A stretch of DNA of 64,000 bases from NCBI RefSeq assembly GCF_963977385.1, contig NZ_CAXBOU010000008.1, positions 108,619-172,618 on the forward strand. Direction: 5' to 3'. The notes below the pieces were generated by a model, which was not told where the DNA came from, did not search any database, and saw nothing but the letters and a program-made list of their open reading frames with translations. Below are positions 6,275 to 19,953 of the stretch, in pieces (the first letter of the stretch is position 1; every line of letters begins with the position of its first letter). A program made the position numbers and the translations under genes. Origin of the DNA: an uncultured Maribacter sp. (GTDB lineage Bacteria > Bacteroidota > Bacteroidia > Flavobacteriales > Flavobacteriaceae).

Positions 6275-7033
6275 ATGGAATCAGAAGTAAATGATGTACG
6301 AATAATAATGAAAGAAACATATGCTAGGTTGGTCACATTTAAAAGTGAGAACAATCAAGAGTCGTTTAATAAAGAATTTTTAAAAATTCTTCCAAAAATA
6401 TATAGGTATGTAGCTAAACGATTAAATAGCGCAGTGTCCAATGGAAAATTGAATAAAGGCATGTTTAATCCGAATGATTTTACGGATCAATTATTTATTG
6501 AAGTCTATGATAATATAGCAGAAATAAAAGATGAAAATGAACTACATGCTTTTCTCTTTAAAAAAGTAGATCAGTTACTGGAAGACAGTTTGGTAGAAGA
6601 GGAGTTTGATCAGGTGTTCTTTGATAATATAGACACCTATTCTAAACCTGAGTGGGATGCTATGGAAGAGAAATATGGCAGAGATGGTGATGGGGATTTT
6701 GTAATGTTAGAAGAAATGGATGATAAATCCTTAAATAAGGATAACTATATACTTGACCATGTTTTTATTACGAATGAAGAAAAAGAACTTGCAGACAAAT
6801 TAGATGCTTCATTGAATAAAGAGCGAATTGAACGCCATATGCAGTTTGTACTTGATAAGATGGACTTGCCTATGAGAACTGTTTTTGAGCTCTTTGCTAA
6901 TGAAGGTTTTACGGCCAAAGAGATTTCGAATATCCGTGATACTACTCTTGCTGAGGTTGAAAAAGTTTTAGTTACTGCACGAAAAATCTTAAGAAACAGT
7001 TTTGAAAAAAGATTCTTAATAGGAACTAATTAA
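6275..7033 (+). CDS. atypical sigma-70-family-like protein (region 4 HTH) with acidic central insert
   Basis: 252 aa. The C-terminal MRTVFELFANEGFTAKEISNIRDTTLAEVEKVLVTARKILRNSF looks like a sigma region 4.2 HTH. The N-terminal part is only vaguely region-2-like. The centre is D/E-rich. Confidence 0.4.
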   Translation: MESEVNDVRIIMKETYARLVTFKSENNQESFNKEFLKILPKIYRYVAKRLNSAVSNGKLNKGMFNPNDFTDQLFIEVYDNIAEIKDENELHAFLFKKVDQLLEDSLVEEEFDQVFFDNIDTYSKPEWDAMEEKYGRDGDGDFVMLEEMDDKSLNKDNYILDHVFITNEEKELADKLDASLNKERIERHMQFVLDKMDLPMRTVFELFANEGFTAKEISNIRDTTLAEVEKVLVTARKILRNSFEKRFLIGTN

Positions 7034-7039
7034 GGTATA

Positions 7040-7080
7040 AAAGAAATGCTCTCATTGAAAAATGAGAGCATTTCTTTTTA
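7040..7080. terminator. bidirectional rho-independent terminator
   Basis: Perfect 17-bp stem (aaagaaatgctctcatt / aatgagagcatttcttt) with GAAA loop. T-tracts flank it on both strands. It lies between convergent genes 6275..7033 and 7121..7582. Confidence 0.9.
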
Positions 7081-7120
7081 ATAATTGAGTGTTTGTTTTA
7101 TTCATTTAAAAGTGTAAAAC

Positions 7121-7582
7121 CTAGTTATCGGTATTTCTAAGTTTTCCGGTTAATTCTGTTATGTTAATGCGAAATACTATGGGCGTATCTTCAGTGTCTA
7201 TTTTTGCGGAAAACTCACTAATACATTTCGGATGTTCTCCGTAATTATCTAAAATTACTTTTTTAACTCCGACAGAAAATTGATGAAGCATATGTTTAGC
7301 ATCGATTCTTGATAGTTCTTCATAGGTGCCTTGTGTCAATATAGATTTCCAATTTCCGATTGAGGTTATATCATCGACTGCCAAACAAATAGAAGGGTTT
7401 TTTCGCATTTCTCTTACTTTATGACCTTCAGATGAATAACTTATTATTGTCTTAGTTTCTGCATCATAGAAGTACGTTATAGGTACAATATGTGGAAACC
7501 CAGCTGAAACATAAGATAAGCGCCCTATATAGTTTTGTTTAAGTAAAGAGATACATTCTTTTTCATCTAAATTTCTTCTCAT
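7121..7582 (-). CDS. pyridoxamine 5'-phosphate oxidase family (FMN-binding split barrel) protein
   Basis: 153 aa. The N-terminus LLKQNYIGRLSYVSAGFPHIVPITYFYD is typical of the Pyridox_ox_2 / flavin-nucleotide-binding family. Confidence 0.7.
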   Translation of the reverse strand: MRRNLDEKECISLLKQNYIGRLSYVSAGFPHIVPITYFYDAETKTIISYSSEGHKVREMRKNPSICLAVDDITSIGNWKSILTQGTYEELSRIDAKHMLHQFSVGVKKVILDNYGEHPKCISEFSAKIDTEDTPIVFRINITELTGKLRNTDN

Positions 7583-7776
7583 AACAAGTCATAATTTAAT
7601 AATGTTTTAAAAGTAAACATCATTAAAAGGGCGGCAAATGATTTTGGTCAGTTGTATAGAAATCAGTAGTCTGATTCTTATATTTTTCAAATTAATGTTA
7701 TACTTTTTCAATGTAGTTGTATTTGTTTATTAGACATTTATTTCTCCTGTTTTATAAATGAAACCAAATGTCAACT

Positions 7777-7807
7777 ACGAATTCTAGTTGATACCCAACG
7801 AATACTA
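7777..7807 (+). promoter_or_regulatory. direct-repeat operator (ACGAATTCTA-N11-ACGAATACTA), candidate LytTR-type binding site
   Basis: Two 10-bp direct repeats with starts 21 bp apart (7777 and 7798). Exactly 31 nt later comes a -7 box TAGATTTG (7839..7846), then the ATG at 7877. The same module occurs at 10158..10188. Confidence 0.6.
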
Positions 7808-7876
7808 AAAGCCTCCATAATTCTTGATTGTTCACAGTTAGATTTGAATCAGAAATAATAATCTAAAACTACAATC

Positions 7877-10024
7877 ATGAAACTACTTTACACCTTTTTA
7901 CTGTGCTGCACCATTTTCACAGGTTTTTCTCAGGACGATAATAGCCCATACTTATTGGTATCCACAGAAGATGCCATAATCCCATTAAAATCTTCAAAGA
8001 CAGATGTTGAAATATCGGGTACTATTGCCCATGTTCGGGTTACACAAGTCTATCAGAATAAAGGAAATCAAGCTATCGAAGCTAAATATGTCTTTCCACT
8101 TTCTACACAAGCAGCAGTGCATAAAATGCAAATGACCATTGGAAACCGAATTGTGAATGCAAAAATATTTGAAAAACAAGAAGCTCAAAAAGTGTACGAG
8201 AAAGCAATAGATGAAGGTAAACGTGCTGCAAAATTAGAACAGAACAGACCTAATGTATTTCAAATGAATGTGGGTAATATTATGCCAGGCGATGAGATTT
8301 CAATTGCTATTTATTACACAGAATTATTAGTTCCTATAAATGGCGAATATCAATTTGTAGCACCAGCGGTAGTTGGACCACGATTTACGGGAGAAAGTGC
8401 TGAAAATGAGGAAAGCTTCAATATGCCATATACGGCTAAAGGAATTGCAGATAGTTTTGATTTTGATATGACGGTTACCCTAAATGCGGGTATGATTATT
8501 CAGAATATCAATAGTACTACTCATAAAGTAAAAGTCAATTACCCAAATGCAAAAACGGCTGAGGTCTTTTTATCCGAAGGAAATAAAAATCCATCGAACA
8601 GAGATTTTATTTTAAATTATAATCTACGTGGCAACCAAATACAATCAGGATTACTGCTATACGAAGGGGAAGATGAAAACTTCTTTACGTACCAAATGGA
8701 ACCAAACAAGAATGTTGTTTTAGAAGACATTCCGGCGCGTGAGTATTTATTTATTGTTGATGTATCGGGTTCTATGAACGGGTATCCATTAGAGGTGTCA
8801 AGAGAACTAATGCGTAATCTTTTGTGTGGTTTACGAATGACAGATACGTTCAATGTACAATTATTCGCTTCGAGCTCTACTATTTTTAGTCCGACTCCGG
8901 TAGAAATTAATGAACAGAATATTGAAGTAGCCATTCGGTTCTTATCCGAAGGTCAAGGCGGTGGTGGTACCGAATTACTAAGTGCATTAAATGAAGCATA
9001 CAAATTACCAAGGAAAGACATAAACGTTGCCCGTTCTATGGTAATTATAACTGACGGATATGTAAGCGTTGAAAAAGAAGCTTTCGAACTTATTAGTTCT
9101 AATCTAGATCAAGCAAATGTCTTCACTTTTGGTATTGGTTCTAGTGTAAATAGATATTTAATAGAGGGTATGGCTAAAGTATCAAATAGCGAATCTTTTA
9201 TTGCGACTACTTCTGAGGAAGCACAAGGAGTTGCAAAAGACTTTGCTAAATACATTGCCACACCATTACTTACACGAGTTAAAATTGAATCTAAAGGATT
9301 TGATATGTATGACCTAGCTCAAAAAAGTATACCAGATGTTTTTGCAGCAAGACCAGTAATAATTCACGGAAAATATAGAGGCAAGGCAGAAGGGAAGATT
9401 ATTGTCACTGGGTATCAAGGTAAGAAGCGATTTAGAGAAGTATACAATGTGTCTGATGGACAGTTAAGTAAATCGAACCAGGCATTACGCTACTTGTGGG
9501 CGAGAAAGAAAATAGGGGAGTTGGATGATTACAATAAACTGTTTAATGAAGATGTGAAAGCAGATGTTGTGGAATTAGGACTTAAGTACAACTTGGTTAC
9601 CAATTATACTTCGTTTGTTGCTGTAGATGAAGCAATAGTTAATGAAGATGGAACATTGACGAAAGTAAAACAACCGTTACCAATGCCAAATAATGTAAAT
9701 AATTCAGCAGTAGGGGCAGAAGCGGAAGTAAAAGAAAGAACAAAATTTAAAGCAACCTATACATTGATTTTTGATGCCGAATTGGATAAAAAAGATAAAA
9801 GACAAGTAACCATGGAGTTCAAAGTGATGTATTCAGAATTAGTAGCAAAGTACCTAGGTAAGTATGAAAGTCTACGCATAAAATTTAACGCCCAAGGTAA
9901 AGTAGTTGGTGTTGAAAAGCTGGAAAATGGAAAATGGGTTTCTGAGGAAAAGATAAGAGTAGACTTTGCTGAAATAGTTATGAAATCAATCCAGAAAGAA
10001 ATGACATTGACTTTGAAAAAATAG
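7877..10024 (+). CDS. secreted VIT domain + von Willebrand factor type A domain protein
   Basis: 715 aa with a signal peptide. The N-terminal VIT-like region contains VTQVYQN...IEAKYVFPL. The vWA MIDAS motif is DVSGSM and a later segment reads ITDGYV. Confidence 0.8.
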   Translation: MKLLYTFLLCCTIFTGFSQDDNSPYLLVSTEDAIIPLKSSKTDVEISGTIAHVRVTQVYQNKGNQAIEAKYVFPLSTQAAVHKMQMTIGNRIVNAKIFEKQEAQKVYEKAIDEGKRAAKLEQNRPNVFQMNVGNIMPGDEISIAIYYTELLVPINGEYQFVAPAVVGPRFTGESAENEESFNMPYTAKGIADSFDFDMTVTLNAGMIIQNINSTTHKVKVNYPNAKTAEVFLSEGNKNPSNRDFILNYNLRGNQIQSGLLLYEGEDENFFTYQMEPNKNVVLEDIPAREYLFIVDVSGSMNGYPLEVSRELMRNLLCGLRMTDTFNVQLFASSSTIFSPTPVEINEQNIEVAIRFLSEGQGGGGTELLSALNEAYKLPRKDINVARSMVIITDGYVSVEKEAFELISSNLDQANVFTFGIGSSVNRYLIEGMAKVSNSESFIATTSEEAQGVAKDFAKYIATPLLTRVKIESKGFDMYDLAQKSIPDVFAARPVIIHGKYRGKAEGKIIVTGYQGKKRFREVYNVSDGQLSKSNQALRYLWARKKIGELDDYNKLFNEDVKADVVELGLKYNLVTNYTSFVAVDEAIVNEDGTLTKVKQPLPMPNNVNNSAVGAEAEVKERTKFKATYTLIFDAELDKKDKRQVTMEFKVMYSELVAKYLGKYESLRIKFNAQGKVVGVEKLENGKWVSEEKIRVDFAEIVMKSIQKEMTLTLKK

Positions 10025-10068
10025 TGAGTTAGTTTTTTGGTTAGTTGGTTCTCTGTAGAGAGAAGAAG

Positions 10069-10105
10069 ACCTGTGGGAATGTAAATTCTTGCAGGTTTTT
10101 CTTTT
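10069..10105 (+). terminator. rho-independent terminator after the VIT/vWA gene
   Basis: Imperfect hairpin gacctgtgggaat-gtaa-attcttgcaggt followed by tttttctttt. Confidence 0.6.
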
Positions 10106-10157
10106 GCTAATTATTACTGAAGAGCACCCTTTTATAATAATAAATACGGAGCATTCA

Positions 10158-10188
10158 ACGAATTCTAGATGAAGGTCTACGAATACTA
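10158..10188 (+). promoter_or_regulatory. direct-repeat operator (ACGAATTCTA-N11-ACGAATACTA), second copy
   Basis: Repeats identical to 7777..7807, with starts at 10158 and 10179. Again 31 nt separate them from a -7-like box TAATTTAG (10220..10227). The ATG is at 10261. Confidence 0.6.
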
Positions 10189-10260
10189 GAACAGCACCTA
10201 AAACACGCTTTGTCTACCCTAATTTAGAGGTGTAGAAACAAAACAACTAAAATAAATACT

Positions 10261-10824
10261 ATGAAAAATTTAATCCTTTTTGCCTTTATACTAGGTGTTT
10301 GTGTAACCAATGCACAAGAGTTTCAATTAACGGATAAGTATAATGTGACTAATCAACGAATGAATAATCAAGAGCAGGAAGATGCATGGTTGGTTGATAT
10401 AATTGTATCAGAGAACCCTGGTAATCGTTTAGGGGCATTGACTATTTCAGATTTCGGTTTATTAGACGAAATACGCATTTCAGTTTTAAAGAATCCAGAA
10501 TTAGAAAATATTTCTGAAATACTTAAAGTAACCCTAGAATATTCCGCTTGCTGCTCAAGTACAGAAGAGTACTATTATTTGGTAACAAACGATAATGATT
10601 TTATCGCGCTACCAAGTATCAAAAACGAATTTGCGTATGATCCTATTTCAGACATACACTACATTTTTCCTAATCAGTCATTTGGCAAGGAAGGAACAAT
10701 TCTAAGAGCTGCATTACAATACACAGAAACATATACGATCAAAGACATTACAGTGCTTCGCAGCATTGCTTGGAACGATGATGACTTTGATACTGAAGAC
10801 GCTATCACAGCAATTAATTATTAA
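10261..10824 (+). CDS. secreted hypothetical protein
   Basis: 187-aa ORF with a signal peptide (MKNLILFAFILGVCVTNAQ). I recognise no family. Confidence 0.6.
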   Translation: MKNLILFAFILGVCVTNAQEFQLTDKYNVTNQRMNNQEQEDAWLVDIIVSENPGNRLGALTISDFGLLDEIRISVLKNPELENISEILKVTLEYSACCSSTEEYYYLVTNDNDFIALPSIKNEFAYDPISDIHYIFPNQSFGKEGTILRAALQYTETYTIKDITVLRSIAWNDDDFDTEDAITAINY

Positions 10825-10845
10825 TAACCCTTAAAATTTAGAATT

Positions 10846-11739
10846 ATGAGAAATTTAAAGAAAAGTGCCTTATTCCTATGCTTATTTGCATTTGTAAACA
10901 TGTTCGCTCAAAATGCACAAGAAGTAGAATTTGAGATAATGGACAAAGAAATTCCCGCAGAAGAATTAACCTATGAATATCTTTTGGCGCACAAAGTTTT
11001 TCTTCGCGAAAAGCCATCTGTTAGAAGTGGAAAGATAACGCTTCTTGATATTGGTACTAAAATGGTGCTTTGGGAAAAGAGTTTGTATACCAAGGAAATC
11101 GACGGTATAAAAAGCCACTGGTACAGAGTAACAACAGGAGATCAGACCGGATGGGTTTGGGGAGGAATGATTGCCCAAAAATCTTTTGGAAGCATTGCTG
11201 ACAACCAGGTAAAGTTTGTATACGGGTATGAAAGTATTGCCACGAATGAATCGGGCATGACAGAGGCAAAATACCAACTACGTGCTTTTAAGAATGGAGT
11301 ACAATTAGACAAGATGGTTTTAGATAGCCTTGGTGCAATTCCGGTACATATTGAAAACCATGGAAGTTTAGGTTTATTCAATGTAGAAGATGTAATTACG
11401 ATAGATTTAGCCGATTCAGATTCTGGCTACCAAGTAGGAAAGAGTTACATTTTTTGGAATAACGGACATTTTAAAAAAGTTGCTAGTTTAATCGACTACG
11501 CCGATGCATCGTATTTAAAGACCGAGTCATTCGTTTTCCCTTCAGATATGCAAGGTGTGAAGAGTACTATTTTATTGAAGACTACCATTACAAAGAACAT
11601 CGTAACACTAGATGATGCTTTAGCTCAGAACAATGTAGAATTCATTACAACGCCTTATACATGGAATGGCTCTAAGTTGACAAAAAAGGAAAAGATTCAA
11701 GCAATTACAAAAGATGCTATAGTAAGTACTGACTATTAA
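10846..11739 (+). CDS. secreted hypothetical protein with SH3b-like domain
   Basis: 297 aa with a signal peptide. KVFLREKPSVRSGKITLLDIGTKMVLW...WYRVTTGDQTGWVWGGMI resembles a bacterial SH3 domain. Confidence 0.6.
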   Translation: MRNLKKSALFLCLFAFVNMFAQNAQEVEFEIMDKEIPAEELTYEYLLAHKVFLREKPSVRSGKITLLDIGTKMVLWEKSLYTKEIDGIKSHWYRVTTGDQTGWVWGGMIAQKSFGSIADNQVKFVYGYESIATNESGMTEAKYQLRAFKNGVQLDKMVLDSLGAIPVHIENHGSLGLFNVEDVITIDLADSDSGYQVGKSYIFWNNGHFKKVASLIDYADASYLKTESFVFPSDMQGVKSTILLKTTITKNIVTLDDALAQNNVEFITTPYTWNGSKLTKKEKIQAITKDAIVSTDY

Positions 11740-11748
11740 AAGATAAAA

Positions 11749-12780
11749 ATGAATAAGTATACAATCTTAGTATTGGTTTGTGTTTTAGTGCTAGGCTGCA
11801 AGAAGCCGTTTTCGAAAAGCTCGGAGACGGCGCTTGCTTCGCCTTTTAGCATTGCAACAGTGCAAGAATCTATAGTGTTTATTGCAGGTTTTGACGAAGG
11901 TGATAATACATATTACACCAATGCAAAACGTTATTTCACTAAGAAAGAAATGCAAGTTGTAACGGGTTTGTATTCTATTGATGAGATTATAAACTTTATA
12001 AATAGGGCAGAGGATAATCGTATTCGTTTTAAAGAAATACATATTGTTAGCCATAGTAATGCTTGGTTGGGTGTGTCTTTAAAGACAACGAAATCGGGTA
12101 AACGAATTACGGTTAAGACATTACACAATGCTATTCAAGAACAGGAAATTCAGTTAATTAAAAATGAATCTACTTCGAATTCAGAAGTGATTTTTCATTC
12201 TTGCGGATTAGGTGAAAATCAAGATTTGTTACAAGAACTAAAAAATACGCTAGGTGCAAAACAAGTATCTGCATCAACATATTTTAATGTATTTGGAGGA
12301 AAATTTGCAGAACACTATTTAGCAAAACCATATTACGGGTACTACCCAACATCAGAATCTAAGGGACCTGCTCATCTTTCCAAAGAATTTAAACAAGAAT
12401 ATCCAGATGTAAACATCGATTGGTTTACTGCTTTAAAGACAAGACAAGAGTCTTCCTTTGGTGAAGCCTATAGTTTCAAATTTAATATTCCAGTAGATTG
12501 GGAGTTTACTTTTGACAACACAGATGATATGCCTAAATTGGAAAACAAAGAAACTATTATGGATTGGATTTCAGAATCTCCAGAAATGGCTGAGGTGCTT
12601 TTTAAATTGAATATTCCGATAGAAAAATTCCGTTGGAGAAGTACTGTTGAAGGCAACAAATTAATAATAAAAGGAAAAACAACGGTACTGTGTGTATTGG
12701 CACCTATTTTGCAGTCTAATGACAAGAATGAATACCAAAGCGTTACAGTAAATGACCGTTCGCTTTATCAAATATTATAA
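11749..12780 (+). CDS. lipoprotein, DUF4347-like N-terminal domain
   Basis: 343 aa with lipobox LVLGC. The pattern VFIAGFDEGD...IDEIINFI...EIHIVSHSNAWLG...VIFHSCGLGENQDLLQEL...GAKQVSAST resembles DUF4347. Assigned from memory. Confidence 0.55.
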   Translation: MNKYTILVLVCVLVLGCKKPFSKSSETALASPFSIATVQESIVFIAGFDEGDNTYYTNAKRYFTKKEMQVVTGLYSIDEIINFINRAEDNRIRFKEIHIVSHSNAWLGVSLKTTKSGKRITVKTLHNAIQEQEIQLIKNESTSNSEVIFHSCGLGENQDLLQELKNTLGAKQVSASTYFNVFGGKFAEHYLAKPYYGYYPTSESKGPAHLSKEFKQEYPDVNIDWFTALKTRQESSFGEAYSFKFNIPVDWEFTFDNTDDMPKLENKETIMDWISESPEMAEVLFKLNIPIEKFRWRSTVEGNKLIIKGKTTVLCVLAPILQSNDKNEYQSVTVNDRSLYQIL

Positions 12781-12831
12781 CAGTATCAGCGTTAAAAAGA
12801 TACTTGAAACCTTAAAATAGAAAACCTTTTT

Positions 12832-15800
12832 TTGAAACTGTATTTGAAATACTTGCTCATTGTGTTTTGTTTCTTCGGAACGATACAAATGTTTGCGCAA
12901 AACAGTCAACTAAGATCGTATACACTTGCAGATGGTTTGCCACAGTCTCAAGTATATGATATACTACAGGATGACATGGGTTATTTGTGGTTGGGAACGC
13001 AAGGTGGCGGATTAGCGAATTTTGATGGAGAAGCATTTGAAGTTTGGAATGAAAGTGATGGATTGCCTTCTAACTACATTGACGCTTTATACAACTCAAA
13101 CGATTCATTATTTATTGGGAGTAGAAAAGGTTTATCTATAAAAGTCAAGAACCGCTTTGTCAATTTTGAATCTCCTCAAATATTTCAAATTTATTCAGCA
13201 GAAAACATTTTATTCATTGGAACTAAAAAGGGAGTTTATAGGTATTCTAAAAACAAAGAACTTCAAAAAGTTTCTATCAATCCAGAGATAGATAAAAGTG
13301 AAATTAACACGATACTTTTTGATGGAAATTGGTATTGGTTAGCTACTAACAACGCCTTATGGAAGCTTAATGAACTAAGTGAATCTGCAACTGAACAATC
13401 TAAAGTTGAGGTCAATAATTTTAAGTCGGTTCTGCTACGTAATAACAAGATAATTGCCGCAACATTTGATGATGGTGTTTTTATAATGGACGTAGAAAAT
13501 ACTGACAATCAGTTTTTAATGCCAGAACCATCTCGTATAAACTCAATGTCAATTCAAAATGAAGATGAATTATGGATAACCACTGACAATGATGGAATTA
13601 CGATTGTAGAGACCGAAAAATTTTCAGAGATAAAACGATTAAATACGGCTGGCGGATTAGCTACTCCGCATATAAGAAAAGTCATTAATGATGATAACGG
13701 CAACCTTTGGATAGCAACTTCTGGTGGCGGATTTTACAAATACTTCCAGAATAATTTTAAGCATTATGACCAACGAACGGGTTTAAAAGGCAATCGTATT
13801 TATGCGGTTCACAATGCCCCGGACGGATTATGGTTTTCAAGTTCAGAAGCTGGATTATCAAAAATAGATTCTGCAGGTATTCATCCATTACCAAACGAAG
13901 GTTCATTTTTCGATGTAAAAATTAAAACGATTACCAGTGATGCCAAAGGCAATATTTGGGCTGGTTCAGATAATAGAGGTTTGTTGTTTAGGGAAACCAA
14001 AATGGTAGACAGTTTGGTATTCTCATCTAGCGAAACCTATTTAATACAAATTGATACCGTTTCGGTAGAAAGAACTACTAATCATATTATTGATGAAAGC
14101 AAAGGCTTTCCGTCAGATTGGGTTCGTACCGTTATTGCAGAAGATGACTACACATGGGCGGCAACGTATGCGCATGGAATCGTAAAATTCAATTATTATT
14201 CAGAAAACGATAGTGTAAAAGTTCGAAAGACATTTACAATGCGAGACGGTATTTCTGATATGCTGATTAGAGATTTTGTAAAAGATAATAATGGTAGGTT
14301 TTGGTTCTCAACACAAAAAGGACATCTAGGCTACATTGAGAATGATAAGGTTAGAGCTGTAGAAACCGGATTGGAACAGCAAACCGCAATTGGTACGGTA
14401 TTATTCCATGAAGATTATATTTTCTTAGGCACATCGGGCAAGGGTATTTGGTACGCGAACAGCACTGATCCTTCACATTTTCAACAATTGAAAGGTGCTA
14501 AGAACTTATCATCAAACAATATATATCAGCTAATTTTTGATGATCAAGGGTATCTGTGGGCAGGTTCTGAAAGAGGAGTAGATAAAATTGAAATGAATAC
14601 TGCCAATGAGATTATGGACATCTATCACTTTGGTAGAAATGATGGTTTTTTAGGAATTGAGACCTGTTTAAATGCCGTAGATAAAGATGAACAAGGTAAC
14701 CTTTGGTTCGGTGCTATTTATGGGTTAACGAAACATATTCCAAGTGAAAGCAAAAAAGCATCGCTACCACCAACGGTCTATTTTACGGGAGTAGAGGAGC
14801 GTTATAAAAATATAGATTCCTTAGTTTTAAAAGACTGGACGAATAGTAAAAAGGTACTGCAACTAACTCCAGAACAGACACAACTAGGGTTTTCATTTAG
14901 AACGGTAGATGTTGACCACCCTAAGGAAATAGAATACAGAACAAAATTAGATGACACCGAATGGAGCCCTTGGGTAAAGGAGAACAAGCAAAATTTTGCA
15001 GGTCTGGCATATGGTCCACATGATTTTTCGGTACAATCTAGAAACTTTAGATGGCAAGAAAGCGAGCCAATAAAATTCAGCTTTTTTATTGATAGTCCGT
15101 TGTATAAGAAAGACTGGTTTCAATGGTCCGTTTTGGCGTTTGCAATTTTAGTGTTGTTAGGTATTGGATTGTTTTACATCCGTAAGATAAAAGCAAAGAA
15201 CAAAGCGGAACAAGAGCGGTTAAAAACTCAGAATTACCTTTTGACCCTAGAACAGAAAGCACTGCAATTACAAATGAATCCGCATTTTATATTCAATGTC
15301 TTAAATGGGGTAAAAGCCATGGCAGGTACGAAACCAGAAAAGATGGATGCGACCATTAATAGCTTTGCCATATTATTAAGAGAGACGCTACAAAATTCAA
15401 GAAAGGAATACATTAGTTTAGATCAAGAGATTAAGGCGCTACGGCATTATATAGAAGTAGAAAAGCTGATGGCGCAAAAGCCTTTTGAGTATACAATTGA
15501 TGTTCAAACCAATCCTGATGCAGAAGAGATATTGATTCCGCCAATGTTAATTCAGCCATTTGTAGAGAATGCCATCAGACATGGAATTTTGAAAGGAGAT
15601 AAACCAGGAAAGCTGTCGATAGAGTTCACCACCTCTAAAACGCATTTGCATTGTAGTATTATTGATAATGGTTTGGGTATTTTTAAATCACAAAACGAAA
15701 AGCCAAAAACAGACCATCAATCCATGGCATTGACGGTGACTAAAGAACGATTAGAATCTATATCAGGAGCAAATACCCTGCATATAAGTGAAATTAAGAA

Positions 15801-15864
15801 TGAAGATGGTAGCATTGATGGCACCAAGATTACCTTTAAAATACCTTTACTAACAGATTATTAG
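12832..15864 (+). CDS. hybrid-architecture sensor: beta-propeller repeats (Reg_prop/Y_Y_Y) + TM + LytS-type histidine kinase
   Basis: 1010 aa with a TTG start and N-terminal signal/TM. Repeated GLPSN/GL..G....I motifs suit two-component-regulator propellers. A single TM (WSVLAFAILVLLGIGLFYI) is followed by the His_kinase motif NPHFIFN and an HATPase region (FVENAIRHG, DNGLGI). Confidence 0.85.
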   Translation: MKLYLKYLLIVFCFFGTIQMFAQNSQLRSYTLADGLPQSQVYDILQDDMGYLWLGTQGGGLANFDGEAFEVWNESDGLPSNYIDALYNSNDSLFIGSRKGLSIKVKNRFVNFESPQIFQIYSAENILFIGTKKGVYRYSKNKELQKVSINPEIDKSEINTILFDGNWYWLATNNALWKLNELSESATEQSKVEVNNFKSVLLRNNKIIAATFDDGVFIMDVENTDNQFLMPEPSRINSMSIQNEDELWITTDNDGITIVETEKFSEIKRLNTAGGLATPHIRKVINDDNGNLWIATSGGGFYKYFQNNFKHYDQRTGLKGNRIYAVHNAPDGLWFSSSEAGLSKIDSAGIHPLPNEGSFFDVKIKTITSDAKGNIWAGSDNRGLLFRETKMVDSLVFSSSETYLIQIDTVSVERTTNHIIDESKGFPSDWVRTVIAEDDYTWAATYAHGIVKFNYYSENDSVKVRKTFTMRDGISDMLIRDFVKDNNGRFWFSTQKGHLGYIENDKVRAVETGLEQQTAIGTVLFHEDYIFLGTSGKGIWYANSTDPSHFQQLKGAKNLSSNNIYQLIFDDQGYLWAGSERGVDKIEMNTANEIMDIYHFGRNDGFLGIETCLNAVDKDEQGNLWFGAIYGLTKHIPSESKKASLPPTVYFTGVEERYKNIDSLVLKDWTNSKKVLQLTPEQTQLGFSFRTVDVDHPKEIEYRTKLDDTEWSPWVKENKQNFAGLAYGPHDFSVQSRNFRWQESEPIKFSFFIDSPLYKKDWFQWSVLAFAILVLLGIGLFYIRKIKAKNKAEQERLKTQNYLLTLEQKALQLQMNPHFIFNVLNGVKAMAGTKPEKMDATINSFAILLRETLQNSRKEYISLDQEIKALRHYIEVEKLMAQKPFEYTIDVQTNPDAEEILIPPMLIQPFVENAIRHGILKGDKPGKLSIEFTTSKTHLHCSIIDNGLGIFKSQNEKPKTDHQSMALTVTKERLESISGANTLHISEIKNEDGSIDGTKITFKIPLLTDY

Positions 15865-15870
15865 AGACCT

Positions 15871-16620
15871 ATGCATACAGCGATTATAGTAGAAGATATG
15901 ATTGACGCCTTAACCCTTTTAAAGAAGGATATAGAGACGCAGCATACAGATATTGAAATTATTGCCACGGCACAGAGTGTAGTGGAAGCTGCCAAGGTAT
16001 TGCGTAAAAATCAACCAGATATCTTGTTTTTGGATATTATGCTGGGTGATGGTACAGGGTTTGACATTTTGGAGATATTTCCAGATTTAAAATCTAAAAT
16101 CATTTTTGTAACCGCTAGTGATGAGTTTGCTATACGTGCATTCAAATTTGCCGCAATTGACTATGTATTAAAACCCTATTCAAACGAAGATTTAAGTTTA
16201 GCGATATCTAGAGCAAAAGAGCAATTGCAGCCTAATAAAGAACGACTACAGATCTTAAAGGAGACTATTTCTGCCCCAGAGAAGAAACCCAATAAAATAT
16301 CGTTACACACGCTAGACCAAATTATCATTGTTAGTTTAGATGATATTATACGTTGCGAATCTGATAGCAATAACACCATTTTTCACCTTCAAGATAAACG
16401 TAAGATATTTGTTACCAAAACCTTAAAGTACTTTGCGGACCTTTTAAGCAGTCACGATTTTGTACGCGTACACCAAAGTCATTTAGTGAATCTTCAATGC
16501 ATAAGTGCCTACATAAAAACAGATGGCGGCTATTTAATGTTGAAGAACGGAGAGAATGTTCCGGTATCTGTCCGTAAGAAAACTGAAATTATAGAGATTT
16601 TGGATAAGATGCATCGGTAG
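15871..16620 (+). CDS. LytR/AlgR (LytTR) family response regulator
   Basis: 249 aa. Receiver domain (IVEDM...PDILFLDIMLGDGTGFD...KP) plus a C-terminal LytTR DNA-binding domain (IIRCESDSNNTIFHLQD...FVRVHQSHLVNL). Lies 6 nt after the kinase gene. Confidence 0.9.
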   Translation: MHTAIIVEDMIDALTLLKKDIETQHTDIEIIATAQSVVEAAKVLRKNQPDILFLDIMLGDGTGFDILEIFPDLKSKIIFVTASDEFAIRAFKFAAIDYVLKPYSNEDLSLAISRAKEQLQPNKERLQILKETISAPEKKPNKISLHTLDQIIIVSLDDIIRCESDSNNTIFHLQDKRKIFVTKTLKYFADLLSSHDFVRVHQSHLVNLQCISAYIKTDGGYLMLKNGENVPVSVRKKTEIIEILDKMHR

Positions 16621-16969
16621 ATAAAAAACAAATATTCAATTATTGATTTCCTTGCCAGGTTGTTGAAAAAACAAAAATTCTTGCGCTAATTTTTACATTA
16701 TTCTCAAAAACATCATTTAAAGTTATATTTTATGTTAAGGTTAACATAATTGTTACAAAACCCTGTCTATTTTTAGAGAGCTAGAATTAAGCTTGTTAAA
16801 TCTATCTATATGATTTAACAATGGAGTTAATAATAGCTGTTTTCTCTTAGGAGCTAGAAAAGTAAGAATACTAAGTTTTTATGAATAGTAGATTCATAAG
16901 CACTTTATATAATATGGTAAGATAAACACTAAGTATATCTAACCTCAAAGAACCATTTAAAACTAACAG

Positions 16970-18610
16970 ATGAAAAGAAGAGATTTTGTACAGTATGCCG
17001 GGATGGGCGCCGGAGCATTAATGATGCCATCATTATTGCTAGGTAATGATATCCCGACAGAGGCTTTACTAGAACCGGGTATGGATACCTTGGTAAAAAA
17101 GAGAATGGCTGATGTTGCCCTTAACACGGCTAAGTCACTTGGCGCAACGTATGCAGATGCTAGAATAGGTAGGTATCTTAACCAGTATGTTTTCACTAGA
17201 GAAGATAAAGTACAAAATGTTGTAAACACAGAGTCTTTCGGTATTGGTATTCGAGTTATAGCCAACGGAACTTGGGGTTTTGCATCAACAAATAGTGTAA
17301 CTGAAGATGGTATTAAAAAAGCTACGGAACAAGCAGTTGCTATTGCTAAGGCAAATTCAAAAATTCAAACAGATCCAGTTAAATTGGCACCTGTAAATGC
17401 ATATGGCGAGGTCTCATGGAAAACGCCTATAACAAAAGATTTTAAAGAAGTACCAGTATCAGAAAAAGTAGATTTATTATTGACTGCTAATGCAGCAGCG
17501 TTGGATAATGGGGCAGATTATGTGAACTCAGCTTTGTTTATGGTAAACGAGCAAAAATATTTTGCTTCTACCGACGGTTCTTATATTGATCAAGACATTC
17601 ACCGTTTATGGCCTACGTTCAGAGTAACTGCAATTGACAAGGCCAAAGGTAACTTTAAGACCCGAGAGAATATGAGTGCGCCAGTAGGAATGGGGTATGA
17701 ATATATGGACGGTCTAGAATCTGAAAAGCTTGATGGTCCTGCAGGTTTACGTTTATATCGTAACAGTTATGATATGGTAGAAGATGCTACTATCGCAGCA
17801 AAACAAGCAAAAGAAAAATTGACTGCAAAATCGGTTGATGCAGGTAAGTATGATTTAGTGCTAGAGCCAAATCATTTAGGTTTGACCATTCATGAATCTG
17901 TGGGGCATCCGCTTGAATTGGATCGTGTTTTAGGATATGAAGCCAATTACGCAGGTACAAGTTTTGCATCTTTAGATAAATTAAAATCAGGAAACTTCCA
18001 ATACGGTAGTGATGTTGTAAATCTTGTAGCCGATAAAACTCAAGTAGGTTCGTTAGGTGCTGTAGGGTATGATGATGAAGGTGTTAAAACCAAAAAGTGG
18101 GATTTGGTACGAAATGGTATCCTTACCAATTTCCAGGCTATTCGCGATCAAGTTCACATGATTGACCAAAATGAATCTCATGGTTGTTGTTATGCACAAA
18201 GTTGGGAAGATGTACAGTTTCAGCGTATGCCAAATGTTTCATTAGAACCAGGGAAAGATAAATACTCTATTTCTGAAATGATAAAAGATGTTGAAAAAGG
18301 AATTTATATTGCAGGTCGAGGCTCTTACTCAATTGATCAGCAACGATATAATTTCCAATTTGGAGGTACTGTGTTCTATGAAATTAAGGATGGTGAAATT
18401 GTAGGTATGTTAGAAGATGTGGCTTACCAATCAAATACTCAAGAGTTTTGGAATTCTTGTGTTAAGATTTGCGATGAAAGTGATTACCGTGTTTTCGGAA
18501 CTTTCTTTGATGGTAAAGGGCAGCCTTCTCAAGCTAGTGCTGTATCTCATGGTAGTTCTACAGCTAGGTTTAATGATGTAAATGTAATTAACACAGGTAG
18601 AACTATTTAA
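16970..18610 (+). CDS. TldD/PmbA family metallopeptidase with twin-arginine signal
   Basis: 546 aa. Tat motif MKRRDFVQYAGMGAGAL and TldD-type HExxxH site (HESVGHPLE). Confidence 0.85.
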   Translation: MKRRDFVQYAGMGAGALMMPSLLLGNDIPTEALLEPGMDTLVKKRMADVALNTAKSLGATYADARIGRYLNQYVFTREDKVQNVVNTESFGIGIRVIANGTWGFASTNSVTEDGIKKATEQAVAIAKANSKIQTDPVKLAPVNAYGEVSWKTPITKDFKEVPVSEKVDLLLTANAAALDNGADYVNSALFMVNEQKYFASTDGSYIDQDIHRLWPTFRVTAIDKAKGNFKTRENMSAPVGMGYEYMDGLESEKLDGPAGLRLYRNSYDMVEDATIAAKQAKEKLTAKSVDAGKYDLVLEPNHLGLTIHESVGHPLELDRVLGYEANYAGTSFASLDKLKSGNFQYGSDVVNLVADKTQVGSLGAVGYDDEGVKTKKWDLVRNGILTNFQAIRDQVHMIDQNESHGCCYAQSWEDVQFQRMPNVSLEPGKDKYSISEMIKDVEKGIYIAGRGSYSIDQQRYNFQFGGTVFYEIKDGEIVGMLEDVAYQSNTQEFWNSCVKICDESDYRVFGTFFDGKGQPSQASAVSHGSSTARFNDVNVINTGRTI

Positions 18611-18636
18611 TTAGGTTCTCCAAAAAAAGGACAACA

Positions 18637-19953
18637 ATGGCAATATATACAAAAGAAGAAGCAAGAAAAATTTTGGAACGAGCTTTAAGCTTTTCCAAGG
18701 CCGATACCTGTGAGATTAACCTAAGCGGTTCAAACAGCGGTAATATAAGGTATGCAAGAAATACGGTTTCTACCTCTGGGTACAGTTCCAATCAAAGTTT
18801 GGCGGTACAATCTAGTTTTGGTAAAAAATCGGGCACAGCTACAATCGATGAGTTTGATGATGCGTCGCTAGAAAAAGTGGTAAGAAGGGCAGAGGAACTG
18901 GCTAATTTATCCCCAGAGAACTCTGAGTTTATGGAGCCCTTAGGGCCGCAAATTTATGATGAAGCCATCAGTTATAGCGAATCAACAGCAACAATTTCAC
19001 CAGACTATAGAGCTACAGTTGCTAGTAGTAGTATTGACCCTGCTTCGACACAGGATGTTACTGCAGCTGGTTTCTTAAATGATTCAGCAGGTTTTAGTGC
19101 AATGATCAATTCAAAAGGACTTTTTGCCTATAATAAATCGACAAATGTTGATTTTACAGTTACCATGCGTACCAATGACGGTACCGGTTCGGGTTGGGTA
19201 TCTAGAGATTTCAATGATGTTACAAAGTTCGATGCAGACGAAGCATCGAAAATAGCAATTGAAAAGGCTGTTTTATCAAGAGAAGCAAAAGCAATTGAAC
19301 CCGGTAAATACACAGTTATTTTAGAGCCTGCAGCAGCATCAGATTTGTTGCGTAATATGTTCAGGTCACTAGATGCACGTTCTGCAGATGAGGGTAGAAG
19401 TTTTATGTCCGGAGCTGACGGAACAAACAAACTAGGTCAGAAAATTGTTGATGAACGTGTACATATTTATTCAGACCCATTAAATGCAGAAGTCCCAACT
19501 TCCACATGGAATCAAGAAGGACAGCCTATAAAGAAAATAACTTGGTTAGAAAACGGGATGGTTAAAAACTTAGCTTATGATCGTTTTTGGGCAAAAGAAA
19601 AAGGAGTTGATCCTGTACCTTTTCCATCAAATGTAATTATGGCTGGTGGTGATCAAAGTTTAGAAGAATTGATCAAAGGAACTAAAAAAGGAATTTTGGT
19701 GACACGATTATGGTACATACGTAGCGTTGATCCACAAACCTTATTATATACGGGACTGACAAGAGACGGAACGTTTTATATCGAAAACGGACAAATTAAA
19801 TACCCTGTGAAGAATTTTAGGTTTAATGAGAGTCCGATAATTATGCTTAACAATCTAGAAACACTTGGTAAGCAAGTACGTATCGATGGTAATCTAATAC
19901 CATACATGAAAATTCGTGATTTCACGTTTACCAGTCTATCCGATGCCGTATAA
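18637..19953 (+). CDS. TldD/PmbA family protein (PmbA/TldE-like partner, no HExxxH)
   Basis: 438 aa with a PmbA_TldD-like fold pattern (GGG..FRFNES, RLWYIR). Adjacent to the TldD-like gene. Confidence 0.8.
   Translation: MAIYTKEEARKILERALSFSKADTCEINLSGSNSGNIRYARNTVSTSGYSSNQSLAVQSSFGKKSGTATIDEFDDASLEKVVRRAEELANLSPENSEFMEPLGPQIYDEAISYSESTATISPDYRATVASSSIDPASTQDVTAAGFLNDSAGFSAMINSKGLFAYNKSTNVDFTVTMRTNDGTGSGWVSRDFNDVTKFDADEASKIAIEKAVLSREAKAIEPGKYTVILEPAAASDLLRNMFRSLDARSADEGRSFMSGADGTNKLGQKIVDERVHIYSDPLNAEVPTSTWNQEGQPIKKITWLENGMVKNLAYDRFWAKEKGVDPVPFPSNVIMAGGDQSLEELIKGTKKGILVTRLWYIRSVDPQTLLYTGLTRDGTFYIENGQIKYPVKNFRFNESPIIMLNNLETLGKQVRIDGNLIPYMKIRDFTFTSLSDAV

What the first reader, a model, noticed from the sequence alone, without database searches (positions are those of the whole stretch)
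7741..10227. Conserved promoter module with 21-bp-phased direct repeats upstream of two units next to a LytTR two-component system
- **Shared module.** The upstream regions of 7877 (VIT/vWA protein) and 10261 (three secreted unknowns) share TTTTATAA…ACGAATTCTA-N11-ACGAATACTA-N31-(-7 box). The -7 boxes are TAGATTTG and TAATTTAG. The repeat sequences and both spacings are identical in the two copies.
- **Similarity to LytTR sites.** LytTR-family regulators such as AgrA, AlgR and PlnC are known to bind paired 9-10-bp direct repeats separated by about 12 bp, which gives a 21-bp periodicity, upstream of activator-dependent promoters.
- **Nearby regulator.** A LytTR regulator and its large propeller-type sensor kinase lie immediately downstream (12832..16620).
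- **Prediction.** This gives a self-contained sensor-regulator-target module whose targets are uncharacterised secreted proteins.
Basis: partly seen in the sequence, partly recalled or inferred. Interest (0 to 1): 0.72.

Follow-up and report, generated by a model that had tools for sequence, protein, structure and literature searches.

The report
LytTR operator of a Bacteroidota regulon
Two identical pairs of 10-bp repeats in this Maribacter-like genome are almost certainly the docking site of the neighbouring LytTR response regulator. The same site, at the same distance from the promoter, precedes the same secreted-protein genes and the regulator's own operon in many marine Bacteroidota.

Summary
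ACGAATTCTA-N11-ACGAATACTA occurs exactly twice in the 64-kb window, at 7777-7807 and 10158-10188. Each copy lies 31 nt upstream of a Bacteroidota -7-type box.

Comparative data strongly support the LytTR-operator reading.
- **Unbiased loci:** in loci chosen only by protein homology, the repeats are about 94% conserved. Spacer and flanks are about 41-55% conserved.
- **Genome scan:** at least 120 exact matches were found, nearly all in Bacteroidota. Among the 80 loci returned, 45 had a VIT/vWA, p187, p297 (SH3) or p343 (DUF4347-like) homologue just downstream, and 33 had the propeller kinase downstream on the same strand.
- **Promoter geometry:** a -7 box sits exactly 31 nt after the site in 43 of 49 cases.
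- **Co-variation:** a sister regulator clade (36-38% identity) has ACACTTAT-type repeats upstream of the same VIT gene.

The second unit is probably an autoregulated operon, p187-p297-p343-kinase-regulator.

Lineage-specific targets (alpha-2-macroglobulin, an OmpA-family protein) and an adjacent class A PBP in the sister clade resemble the Shewanella PghKR/sortase peptidoglycan-damage system. That suggests an envelope-stress role.

This is a new member of a known kind. Binding itself is untested.

The parts
7777..7786 (+). Operator 1, distal repeat ACGAATTCTA (inferred position about -74 to -65)
   Evidence: Conserved in orthologous loci.
7798..7807 (+). Operator 1, proximal repeat ACGAATACTA (inferred position about -53 to -44)
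   Evidence: Conserved in orthologous loci.
7839..7846 (+). Predicted sigma-A -7 box TAGATTTG. Inferred transcription start near 7851.
   Evidence: A -7-like box starts exactly 31 nt after the proximal repeat in 43 of 49 related sites. The consensus and its -12..-5 position come from PMC9723704.
7877..10024 (+). Target 1: secreted VIT + vWA protein (715 aa), monocistronic
   Evidence: Pfam. NCBIfam TIGR03788 at 382 bits, below the cut-off. Orthologues across Flavobacteriaceae.
10065..10110 (+). Intrinsic-terminator-like hairpin plus T run that ends the VIT unit
10158..10167 (+). Operator 2, distal repeat ACGAATTCTA
   Evidence: Conserved.
10179..10188 (+). Operator 2, proximal repeat ACGAATACTA
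   Evidence: Conserved.
10220..10227 (+). Predicted -7 box TAATTTAG (one mismatch to TAnnTTTG). Inferred transcription start near 10232.
   Evidence: The same offset and the same variant box occur in L005, L125 and L151.
10261..10824 (+). p187: secreted 187-aa protein with no known domain. First gene of the second unit.
   Evidence: Homologues are the first gene after the operator in 13 genomes.
10846..11739 (+). p297: secreted protein with a bacterial SH3_3 domain
   Evidence: Homologues are the first gene after the operator in 7-8 genomes.
11749..12780 (+). p343: lipoprotein with a DUF4347-like N-terminal alpha/beta domain. H102, H150 and C152 are invariant.
   Evidence: Always linked with VIT and/or the kinase in relatives.
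12832..15864 (+). Sensor kinase: extracytoplasmic double-propeller sensor like that of Bacteroides hybrid two-component systems, a transmembrane segment, and a LytS-type His_kinase + HATPase_c core
   Evidence: Pfam. PDB matches 4a2l, 3v9f and 3ott for the sensor and 6swj for the kinase core. Sequence.
15871..16620 (+). Response regulator REC (predicted phospho-acceptor D55) + LytTR DNA-binding domain; the proposed binder of both operators
   Evidence: Pfam. The best NCBIfam matches are BtsR and LytR. Alignment.

Best explanation
The two repeat pairs are operators of the LytTR response regulator encoded at 15871-16620.

Proposed mechanism:
1. An unknown extracytoplasmic signal, probably a glycan or another envelope-derived ligand, is sensed by the double-propeller domain of the kinase (12832-15864).
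2. The LytS-type kinase core phosphorylates the regulator at D55.
3. Two regulator molecules bind the two 10-bp direct repeats. Their centres are 21 bp apart, which is two helical turns, so they lie on the same face of the DNA. The inferred centres are near -69.5 and -48.5.
4. Binding recruits sigma-A RNA polymerase to promoters that have a -7 box 31 nt downstream but no canonical -33 element.
5. One promoter drives the monocistronic VIT/vWA gene. The other drives p187-p297-p343-kinase-regulator, giving positive autoregulation.

Shown here: the sequence features, their conservation, the fixed geometry, the genomic linkage, and the co-variation between regulator clade and operator.

Inferred: binding, activation rather than repression, transcription start sites, operon extent and the signal.
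For: 1. **Exactness and rarity.** There are 2 exact copies in 64 kb against 0.03 expected.
2. **Known geometry.** The 10 + 11 + 10 layout equals that of known LytTR sites. These are two 9-11-nt repeats separated by 11-13 nt, and YpdB's site is GGCATTTCAT-N11-GGCATTTCAT (PMC4847170). In LytTR regulatory systems the repeats lie 4-11 bp upstream of the -35 element and are autoregulatory (PMC6193735).
3. **Unbiased footprint.** Sixteen sites from loci chosen only by protein homology were compared (L004-L006, L008, L011, L020, L204-L206 and the window). Repeat positions are 94% conserved. The spacer is 55%, upstream flanks 41% and the -7 box 78%. In L204-L206, 6 of 6 expected sites are present with 0-2 mismatches.
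4. **Genome scan**.
About 17 would be expected under uniform composition (my own calculation).
   - Nearly all hits are in Bacteroidota.
   - Of the 80 loci returned, 45 have a VIT, p187, p297 or p343 homologue starting less than 700 nt downstream on the same strand.
   - 33 have the kinase homologue further downstream, and 16 have the regulator at 55% identity or more, within 8-kb loci.
5. **Promoter geometry.** A -7-like box starts exactly 31 nt after the site in 43 of 49 cases, although the search pattern did not require it. The distance from site to ATG is mostly 69-79 nt.
6. **Co-variation.** In five loci the adjacent LytTR regulator is only 36-38% identical to the window's (L007, L009, L079, and the independently fetched L209 and L210). 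These loci have 2-3 direct repeats ACACTTAT(N)(N) at 20-21-bp spacing upstream of the same VIT gene, and no window-type motif.
7. **Transcription units.** There is a terminator after VIT and none on the + strand between 10261 and 16620. Intergenic gaps are 6-51 nt.
Against: - There is no binding, transcription-start or expression data.
- Some contigs carry the operator upstream of VIT without the two-component system within 10 kb (L008). In L011 only an unrelated LytTR system lies nearby.
- In L099 the same motif sits next to a different LytTR regulator of 41% identity. More than one regulator may therefore read this motif.
- The -7 consensus on its own is not enriched in the window: 84 matches against 97 expected. 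The promoter assignment rests on the conserved offset alone.
- The second -7 box (TAATTTAG) deviates from the consensus.
- A weak internal promoter before the kinase (around 12799) cannot be excluded, so the extent of autoregulation is uncertain.
Confidence: 0.82

Rival explanations
1. The repeats are the operator of another regulator that is not linked to this cluster, such as a different LytTR protein or another protein that binds direct repeats. On this view the cluster, including its two-component system, is only a target.
For: L099 shows the same motif beside a different LytTR regulator of 41% identity. L008 and L011 have the operator without the cognate system within 10 kb.
Against: The operator lies upstream of an operon that contains the kinase in 33 loci across many genera. 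The operator sequence switches to ACACTTAT-type exactly where the linked regulator belongs to the sister clade. The 21-bp phasing is the LytTR signature (PMC4847170).
Confidence: 0.08
2. The linked LytTR regulator does bind the site, but as a repressor or a dual regulator rather than an activator.
For: Some LytTR regulators also repress. AgrA bound downstream of the bsaA promoter is one example (PMC4227749). No expression data exist here.
Against: The site lies wholly upstream of the predicted core promoter, with the proximal repeat ending about 31 nt before the -7 box. The canonical -33 element is missing. This is the architecture of activator-dependent LytTR promoters (PMC6193735, PMC4227749).
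Confidence: 0.07
3. The pair is a dispersed or tandem repeat element, or a remnant of a mobile element, that happens to lie in two intergenic regions. On this view it has no regulatory role.
For: The same 21-bp unit forms tandem arrays in three unrelated MAGs (L093, L106, L118).
Against: - There are only two copies in 64 kb, and among the loci listed from the capped scan at most three per genome.
- The orientation relative to the downstream gene is always the same.
- The offset to the -7 box is fixed at 31 nt.
- The spacers diverge freely while the repeats stay fixed.
- No transposase or terminal inverted repeats are present.
Confidence: 0.02

Closest known systems
YpdA/YpdB and BtsS/BtsR of Escherichia coli (LytS-type kinase + LytTR regulator)
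   Same: The kinase core family (PF06580) and the REC-LytTR regulator are the same, and BtsR is the best NCBIfam match. The YpdB operator is two 10-bp direct repeats with an 11-bp spacer, which is the identical geometry (PMC4847170).
   Different: The E. coli kinases sense pyruvate through polytopic membrane/GAF domains and control a single transporter gene. Here the sensor is a roughly 740-aa extracytoplasmic double propeller. The targets are secreted proteins plus the system's own operon. The repeat sequences are unrelated, and the promoter is of the Bacteroidota -7 type.
AgrC/AgrA of Staphylococcus aureus and related peptide quorum-sensing systems; LytTR regulatory systems (HdrRM/BrsRM)
   Same: A LytTR regulator binds paired direct repeats just upstream of suboptimal promoters. 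It activates its own operon plus a second unit (PMC4227749, PMC6193735).
   Different: Those are systems of Gram-positive bacteria with 9-bp repeats and 12-bp spacers, peptide signals or membrane anti-regulators, and -35/-10 promoters. No peptide-pheromone gene or export gene is evident here.
Bacteroides hybrid two-component systems (for example BT4663; PDB 4a2l, 3v9f, 3ott)
   Same: The extracytoplasmic sensor is homologous, with Reg_prop propellers. Y_Y_Y is detected in sister-clade kinases.
   Different: Hybrid systems fuse HisKA-HATPase-REC-AraC in a single polypeptide. Here the sensor is joined to a LytS-type kinase core and signals to a separate LytTR regulator.
Proteobacterial dedicated sortase system / PghKR of Shewanella oneidensis (bioRxiv 10.1101/2023.05.05.539549)
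   Same: [quoted passage not shown]
- The window protein matches that target family, TIGR03788, at 382 bits over nearly its full length.
- An OmpA-family protein is part of the Shewanella operon. An OmpA-family gene carries the operator in one Bacteroidota MAG (L094).
   Different: - The kinase does not match TIGR03785, and the regulator is LytTR-type.
- There is no sortase and no LPXTG tail.
- A DUF4347-like His/Cys lipoprotein (p343) is the conserved partner instead.
- Induction by peptidoglycan damage is shown only for Shewanella.

Membership tests
LytTR-family response-regulator operator (AgrA/YpdB/PlnC type) | The cognate regulator carries REC + LytTR domains | tested here: met
   Pfam: LytTR 2e-18 and Response_reg 6e-16 for 15871-16620.
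LytTR-family response-regulator operator (AgrA/YpdB/PlnC type) | Two direct repeats of 9-11 nt separated by 11-13 nt (criterion from PMC4847170) | tested here: met
   The layout is 10 + 11 + 10 nt at 7777-7807 and 10158-10188.
LytTR-family response-regulator operator (AgrA/YpdB/PlnC type) | Repeats lie immediately upstream of the core promoter of the regulated gene | tested here: met
   A -7 box lies exactly 31 nt downstream in 43 of 49 related sites and in both window copies. The promoter is predicted; the transcription start has not been mapped.
LytTR-family response-regulator operator (AgrA/YpdB/PlnC type) | The operator is conserved with, and co-varies with, the regulator across species | tested here: met
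   Window-type motif occurs where the regulator is 62-82% identical. ACACTTAT-type repeats occur with the sister clade at 36-38% identity.
LytTR-family response-regulator operator (AgrA/YpdB/PlnC type) | Physical, sequence-specific binding by the regulator | not testable with these tools
   This requires EMSA or footprinting.
LytTR-family response-regulator operator (AgrA/YpdB/PlnC type) | Positive autoregulation of the regulator's own operon | tested here: inconclusive
   The operator precedes an operon-like gene string ending in kinase-regulator in the window and in 33 loci. Co-transcription has not been measured.
Bacteroides hybrid two-component system | Periplasmic Reg_prop / Y_Y_Y sensor | tested here: met
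   Pfam Reg_prop at 5.6e-28. PDB 4a2l at 1.8e-27 and 3v9f at 3.9e-22.
Bacteroides hybrid two-component system | Kinase, receiver and AraC-type DNA-binding domain fused in one polypeptide | tested here: not met
   The protein ends with His_kinase + HATPase_c. The regulator is a separate REC-LytTR protein.
Proteobacterial dedicated sortase (Pds/PghKR) system | VIT/vWA target protein of family TIGR03788 with a C-terminal sortase signal | tested here: not met
   The score is 382 bits against a cut-off of 551.65. The match stops at profile position 593 of 629, so the sorting-signal end is not covered.
Proteobacterial dedicated sortase (Pds/PghKR) system | Adjacent sortase gene and a TIGR03785-type kinase | tested here: not met
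   No sortase domain was found in p187, p297 or p343. The kinase has no TIGR03785 match.
Proteobacterial dedicated sortase (Pds/PghKR) system | Induction by peptidoglycan damage | not testable with these tools
   Known only for Shewanella (bioRxiv 10.1101/2023.05.05.539549).
Dispersed repeat / miniature mobile element | Many copies at unrelated genomic positions, in either orientation | tested here: not met
   There are 2 copies in 64 kb, and 1-3 per genome among the loci listed from a capped scan. Orientation and promoter offset are fixed.

The most novel reading that the evidence does not exclude
The cluster may be the Bacteroidota counterpart of the proteobacterial PghKR/dedicated-sortase system. 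On this reading it is an envelope or peptidoglycan-damage sensing circuit.
- A glycan-binding double-propeller kinase signals through a LytTR regulator and its ACGAATWCTA-N11-ACGAATWCTA operator.
- The circuit induces a VIT/vWA protein, an SH3b-type (possibly wall-binding) protein and a His/Cys DUF4347-like lipoprotein. That lipoprotein could play the processing role of the sortase.
- Depending on lineage, it also induces alpha-2-macroglobulin and OmpA-family proteins, and in the sister clade it sits next to a class A PBP.

If so, two unrelated signalling modules have convergently been wired to the same ancient effector.
Probability: 0.3. Interest if true: 0.8.

Novelty: new member of a known kind. 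Interest (0 to 1): 0.6.

Why it matters
- **A rare defined operator in Bacteroidota.** Few transcription-factor operators are defined in Bacteroidota, and I found no paper describing a LytTR regulon there. This result gives an exact motif, its promoter geometry, a predicted autoregulatory loop and a cross-phylum-scale regulon. All of these can be tested directly with EMSA, reporters and RNA-seq.
- **A handle on specificity.** The paired clades (ACGAATWCTA versus ACACTTAT) offer a natural experiment on how LytTR domains read DNA.
- **A possible envelope-stress pathway.** The regulon content (VIT/vWA, alpha-2-macroglobulin, OmpA-like, with a neighbouring PBP) links to the Shewanella peptidoglycan-damage system. 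It gives a concrete lead on envelope-stress sensing in Bacteroidota and on the unknown role of bacterial VIT/vWA proteins.

Tried and rejected
- **TTTTATAA as part of the module.** Its offset differs between the two copies, and it shows no conservation across 49 sites or the 16 unbiased sites.
- **A third in-phase repeat in the window.** None is present, unlike the sister clade, which has three.
- **Sigma-70 -35/-10 scan.** It was uninformative: 41 sites found against 41.8 expected.
- **The -7 consensus alone.** It is not enriched: 84 matches against 97 expected.
- **Rfam scan of 7000-17500.** It found no RNA family; the best hit had E = 0.6.
- **Four-mismatch hits in L019, L022 and L027.** They lie inside the coding region of p343 homologues and were rejected as chance.
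- **Hits outside the regulon.** Hits in Lachnospiraceae (coding sequence) and upstream of guaA and ddl were treated as chance.
- **Metagenome search with the VIT alignment.** Most of the 80 loci returned were about 50% identical relatives, and most lacked the motif. Only about 10 were useful.
- **Function of p343.** The AlphaFold model had pLDDT 81 but no PDB fold match at E ≤ 1e-3. The top hits were flavodoxin-like folds and a T6SS effector at TM about 0.5. A profile search against PDB sequences also found nothing. Only borderline DUF4347 matches remain.
- **Literature searches for a described Bacteroidota LytTR/VIT system.** They found nothing relevant.
Full report
**1. Observation**

The window carries ACGAATTCTA-N11-ACGAATACTA at 7777-7807 and again at 10158-10188, both on the + strand. 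Each copy is followed after exactly 31 nt by a Bacteroidota -7-type box: TAGATTTG at 7839-7846 and TAATTTAG at 10220-10227. The start codons follow at 7877 and 10261. With up to three mismatches allowed, the composite pattern still has only these two matches in 64 kb, against 0.03 expected from shuffles. The two upstream regions share little else. The 11-nt spacers differ, and outside the repeats the alignment is no better than AT-rich background.

**2. Genes**

- 7877-10024 encodes a VIT + vWA protein.
- 10846-11739 encodes a protein with an SH3_3 domain.
- 11749-12780 gives a borderline DUF4347 match.
- 12832-15864 encodes Reg_prop propellers + His_kinase (PF06580) + HATPase_c.
- 15871-16620 encodes REC + LytTR.

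The three small proteins begin with signal or lipoprotein peptides.

The extracytoplasmic part of the kinase matches the solved sensor domains of Bacteroides hybrid two-component systems (4a2l, 3v9f, 3ott). Its cytoplasmic part matches a stand-alone histidine-kinase core, 6swj.

A terminator-like hairpin follows the VIT gene at 10065-10100. No + strand terminator was detected between 10261 and 16620, and the gaps between those five genes are 6-51 nt. The second unit is therefore most simply read as one operon that ends with the kinase and the regulator.

The organism is a Maribacter-like flavobacterium.

**3. Conservation without selection on the motif**

Loci were collected by homology to the VIT protein or to p343.
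- Every locus whose VIT protein is at least 53% identical (L004, L005, L006, L204, L205, L206) has the repeat pair about 100 nt upstream of VIT.
- Where the sequence extends far enough, a second pair precedes the next operon.
- In L204-L206, all six expected sites are present with 0-2 mismatches. The only other match at up to 4 mismatches in those roughly 63 kb is a shifted overlap of one of these sites.

Across the 16 unbiased sites, the commonest base has a mean frequency of 0.94 in each repeat. It is 0.55 in the spacer, 0.41 in the 30 nt upstream, 0.52 in the 31 nt downstream and 0.78 in the -7 box. This is a textbook phylogenetic footprint.

**4. Distribution across genomes**

My own estimate for uniform base composition is about 17 chance hits. 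The 80 loci returned are almost all Bacteroidota: Aquimarina, Polaribacter, Tenacibaculum, Psychroserpens, Maribacter, Kordia, Algibacter, Saprospiraceae and Cyclobacteriaceae.

What lies downstream of the sites:
- In 45 loci a homologue of VIT, p187, p297 or p343 starts less than 700 nt downstream on the same strand.
- In 33 loci the kinase homologue follows.
- In 16 loci the regulator (at least 55% identity) is also within the 8-kb locus.

Gene order varies by lineage.
- Maribacter has operator-VIT, then operator-p187-p297-p343-kinase-regulator.
- Aquimarina has operator-p187-kinase-regulator.
- Psychroserpens has operator-p297-kinase-regulator.
- Polaribacter and Tenacibaculum have operator-(small ORF)-p343-...-kinase-regulator.

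In every case the operator points toward the genes.

Clear chance hits are few. They comprise two Lachnospiraceae coding sequences, guaA, ddl and a few non-Bacteroidota MAGs.

**5. Promoter geometry**

I anchored 49 sites that precede members of the four core families. A TA..TT[TA][GA] box starts exactly 31 nt after the proximal repeat in 43 of them, and at 32 nt in 2 more. The search pattern imposed nothing downstream of the repeats. The distance from the site to the ATG is mostly 69-79 nt.

The -7 box TAnnTTTG occupies -12 to -5 in flavobacterial sigma-A promoters (PMC9723704; see also PMC7641319). By inference, the proximal repeat then spans about -53 to -44 and the distal repeat about -74 to -65. 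No canonical TTTG -33 element is conserved. There is only a weak AAATTT block 10-15 nt after the site. An operator abutting a promoter that lacks its upstream element is the usual activator-dependent layout. It matches what is described for AgrA (PMC4227749) and for LytTR regulatory systems, where the repeats lie 4-11 bp upstream of the -35 element and drive autoregulation (PMC6193735).

**6. Co-variation with the regulator**

Three VIT loci (L007, L009, L079) carry an adjacent LytTR regulator that is only 36-38% identical to the window's. A de novo search for phased repeats found a different unit there: two or three copies of ACACTTAT(C/T/G)(A/G) spaced 20-21 bp apart, clustered only upstream of VIT.

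As a test, I searched for homologues of the L009 regulator and fetched four long contigs. All four carry the same propeller/Y_Y_Y/His_kinase sensor next to the regulator. The two that also contain a VIT gene (L209 and L210) have ACACTTAT repeats at 20-21-bp spacing upstream of it and no window-type motif.

So the target gene stays the same while operator and regulator change together. This is the strongest computational argument that the linked regulator reads the repeats.

An alignment of regulators shows clade-specific differences in the LytTR domain, for example HQSHL/SVRK versus HHSHL/SFRK. These are candidate specificity determinants and are not proven.

**7. Comparison with known systems**

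The geometry meets the published definition of LytTR sites: two 9-11-nt repeats separated by 11-13 nt. It is identical to that of YpdB's site, GGCATTTCAT-N11-GGCATTTCAT (PMC4847170). The kinase core (PF06580) belongs to the family that partners LytTR regulators, and BtsR and LytR are the regulator's best NCBIfam matches.

The sensor is homologous to that of Bacteroides hybrid two-component systems, but the protein lacks their fused receiver and AraC output. It is therefore not a member of that family.

I found no paper describing this system.

**8. What the regulon may do (inference)**

The VIT/vWA protein matches TIGR03788, 'marine proteobacterial sortase target', over almost its full length. 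The score is below the cut-off, and the match does not include the sorting-signal end.

In Shewanella oneidensis the corresponding gene (SO2195) sits in an operon with an OmpA-family protein and a sortase, next to the two-component system PghKR. That operon is induced more than 17-fold by ampicillin or by loss of PBP1a. PghK senses through a large carbohydrate-binding periplasmic domain (bioRxiv 10.1101/2023.05.05.539549).

The parallels here are as follows.
- The conserved partners are an SH3_3 protein and p343. p343 is a lipoprotein whose family has invariant H102, H150 and C152.
- The exact operator also precedes other genes, depending on lineage. These are alpha-2-macroglobulin genes in five genera, an OmpA-family gene, DUF4082 lipoproteins, a reprolysin-like T9SS protease and a small membrane peptide.
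- In the sister clade, VIT and the p343-like gene are followed by a class A penicillin-binding protein in L009 and L209.

Together these suggest an envelope-protection or wall-damage response that is analogous, not homologous, in its signalling part to PghKR. I rate this reading at about 0.3.

The fold of p343 gave no significant PDB match, so its enzymatic role is open.

**9. Verdict**

The LytTR-operator interpretation is supported by footprinting, linkage, geometry and co-variation (confidence about 0.8). The dispersed-repeat alternative is excluded.

It is a new, well-defined member of a known class of regulatory site, with a conserved and previously undescribed regulon in Bacteroidota. 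Binding, activation, transcription starts, operon structure and the signal all remain to be shown experimentally.

Noticed in passing
L118 3467-3913; L093 1421-1563; L106 1-143: Tandem arrays of a 21-bp unit carry the same ACGAA(T/C)(A/T)CT(C/A) core. There are 21.3 copies in a Flavipsychrobacter MAG, 6.8 copies in a Raineyaceae MAG (followed by a 151-aa lipoprotein gene), and at least 6.8 copies in an Acidobacteria MAG, where the array is cut by the locus end. They could be multi-site operators or unrelated satellites.
   Followed up: partly
L091, L095, L103, L104, L131 (Tenacibaculum); L087, L143 (Kordia): The first gene after the operator is a 71-aa ORF (190 aa in Kordia). It is homologous to residues about 650-695 of the window VIT/vWA protein. 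The C-terminal domain of that protein therefore also exists as a stand-alone regulated protein.
   Followed up: partly
L100, L116, L120, L140, L147: The exact operator lies upstream of bacterial alpha-2-macroglobulin genes in five genera. Only L140 and L147 show a -7 box at the canonical offset.
   Followed up: partly
L009 13497-15746; L209 12637-14922: In the sister clade, the VIT and p343-like gene pair is followed directly by a class A penicillin-binding protein (transglycosylase + transpeptidase).
   Followed up: partly
L099 (Cyclobacteriaceae MAG), site at 1928 in the oriented locus: A window-type operator, ACGAATTCTC-N11-ACGAATTCTC, sits 40 nt after a different LytTR regulator (41% identity, with a different kinase). 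It lies upstream of an adhesin-like protein of more than 1984 aa. The motif may therefore be read by more than one LytTR lineage.
   Followed up: partly
window 11749-12780: The p343 family (371 homologues, mostly annotated as hypothetical or DUF4347) has invariant His102, His150 and Cys152 in an alpha/beta N-terminal domain. The AlphaFold model is confident (pLDDT 81) but has no significant PDB neighbour.
   Followed up: partly
window 12781-12831: The 51-nt gap before the kinase gene contains TACTTGAA at 12799-12806. This is a possible weak internal promoter that could supply basal kinase and regulator expression.
   Followed up: no
window 16970-19953: A TldD/PmbA-family metallopeptidase pair lies directly downstream of the regulator. 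It is not conserved next to the cluster in L204-L206.
   Followed up: no
L142 7340-7486; L146 (Aquimarina): The operator, with a -7 box at the canonical offset, precedes a conserved ORF of about 48 aa for a membrane-anchored peptide.
   Followed up: no
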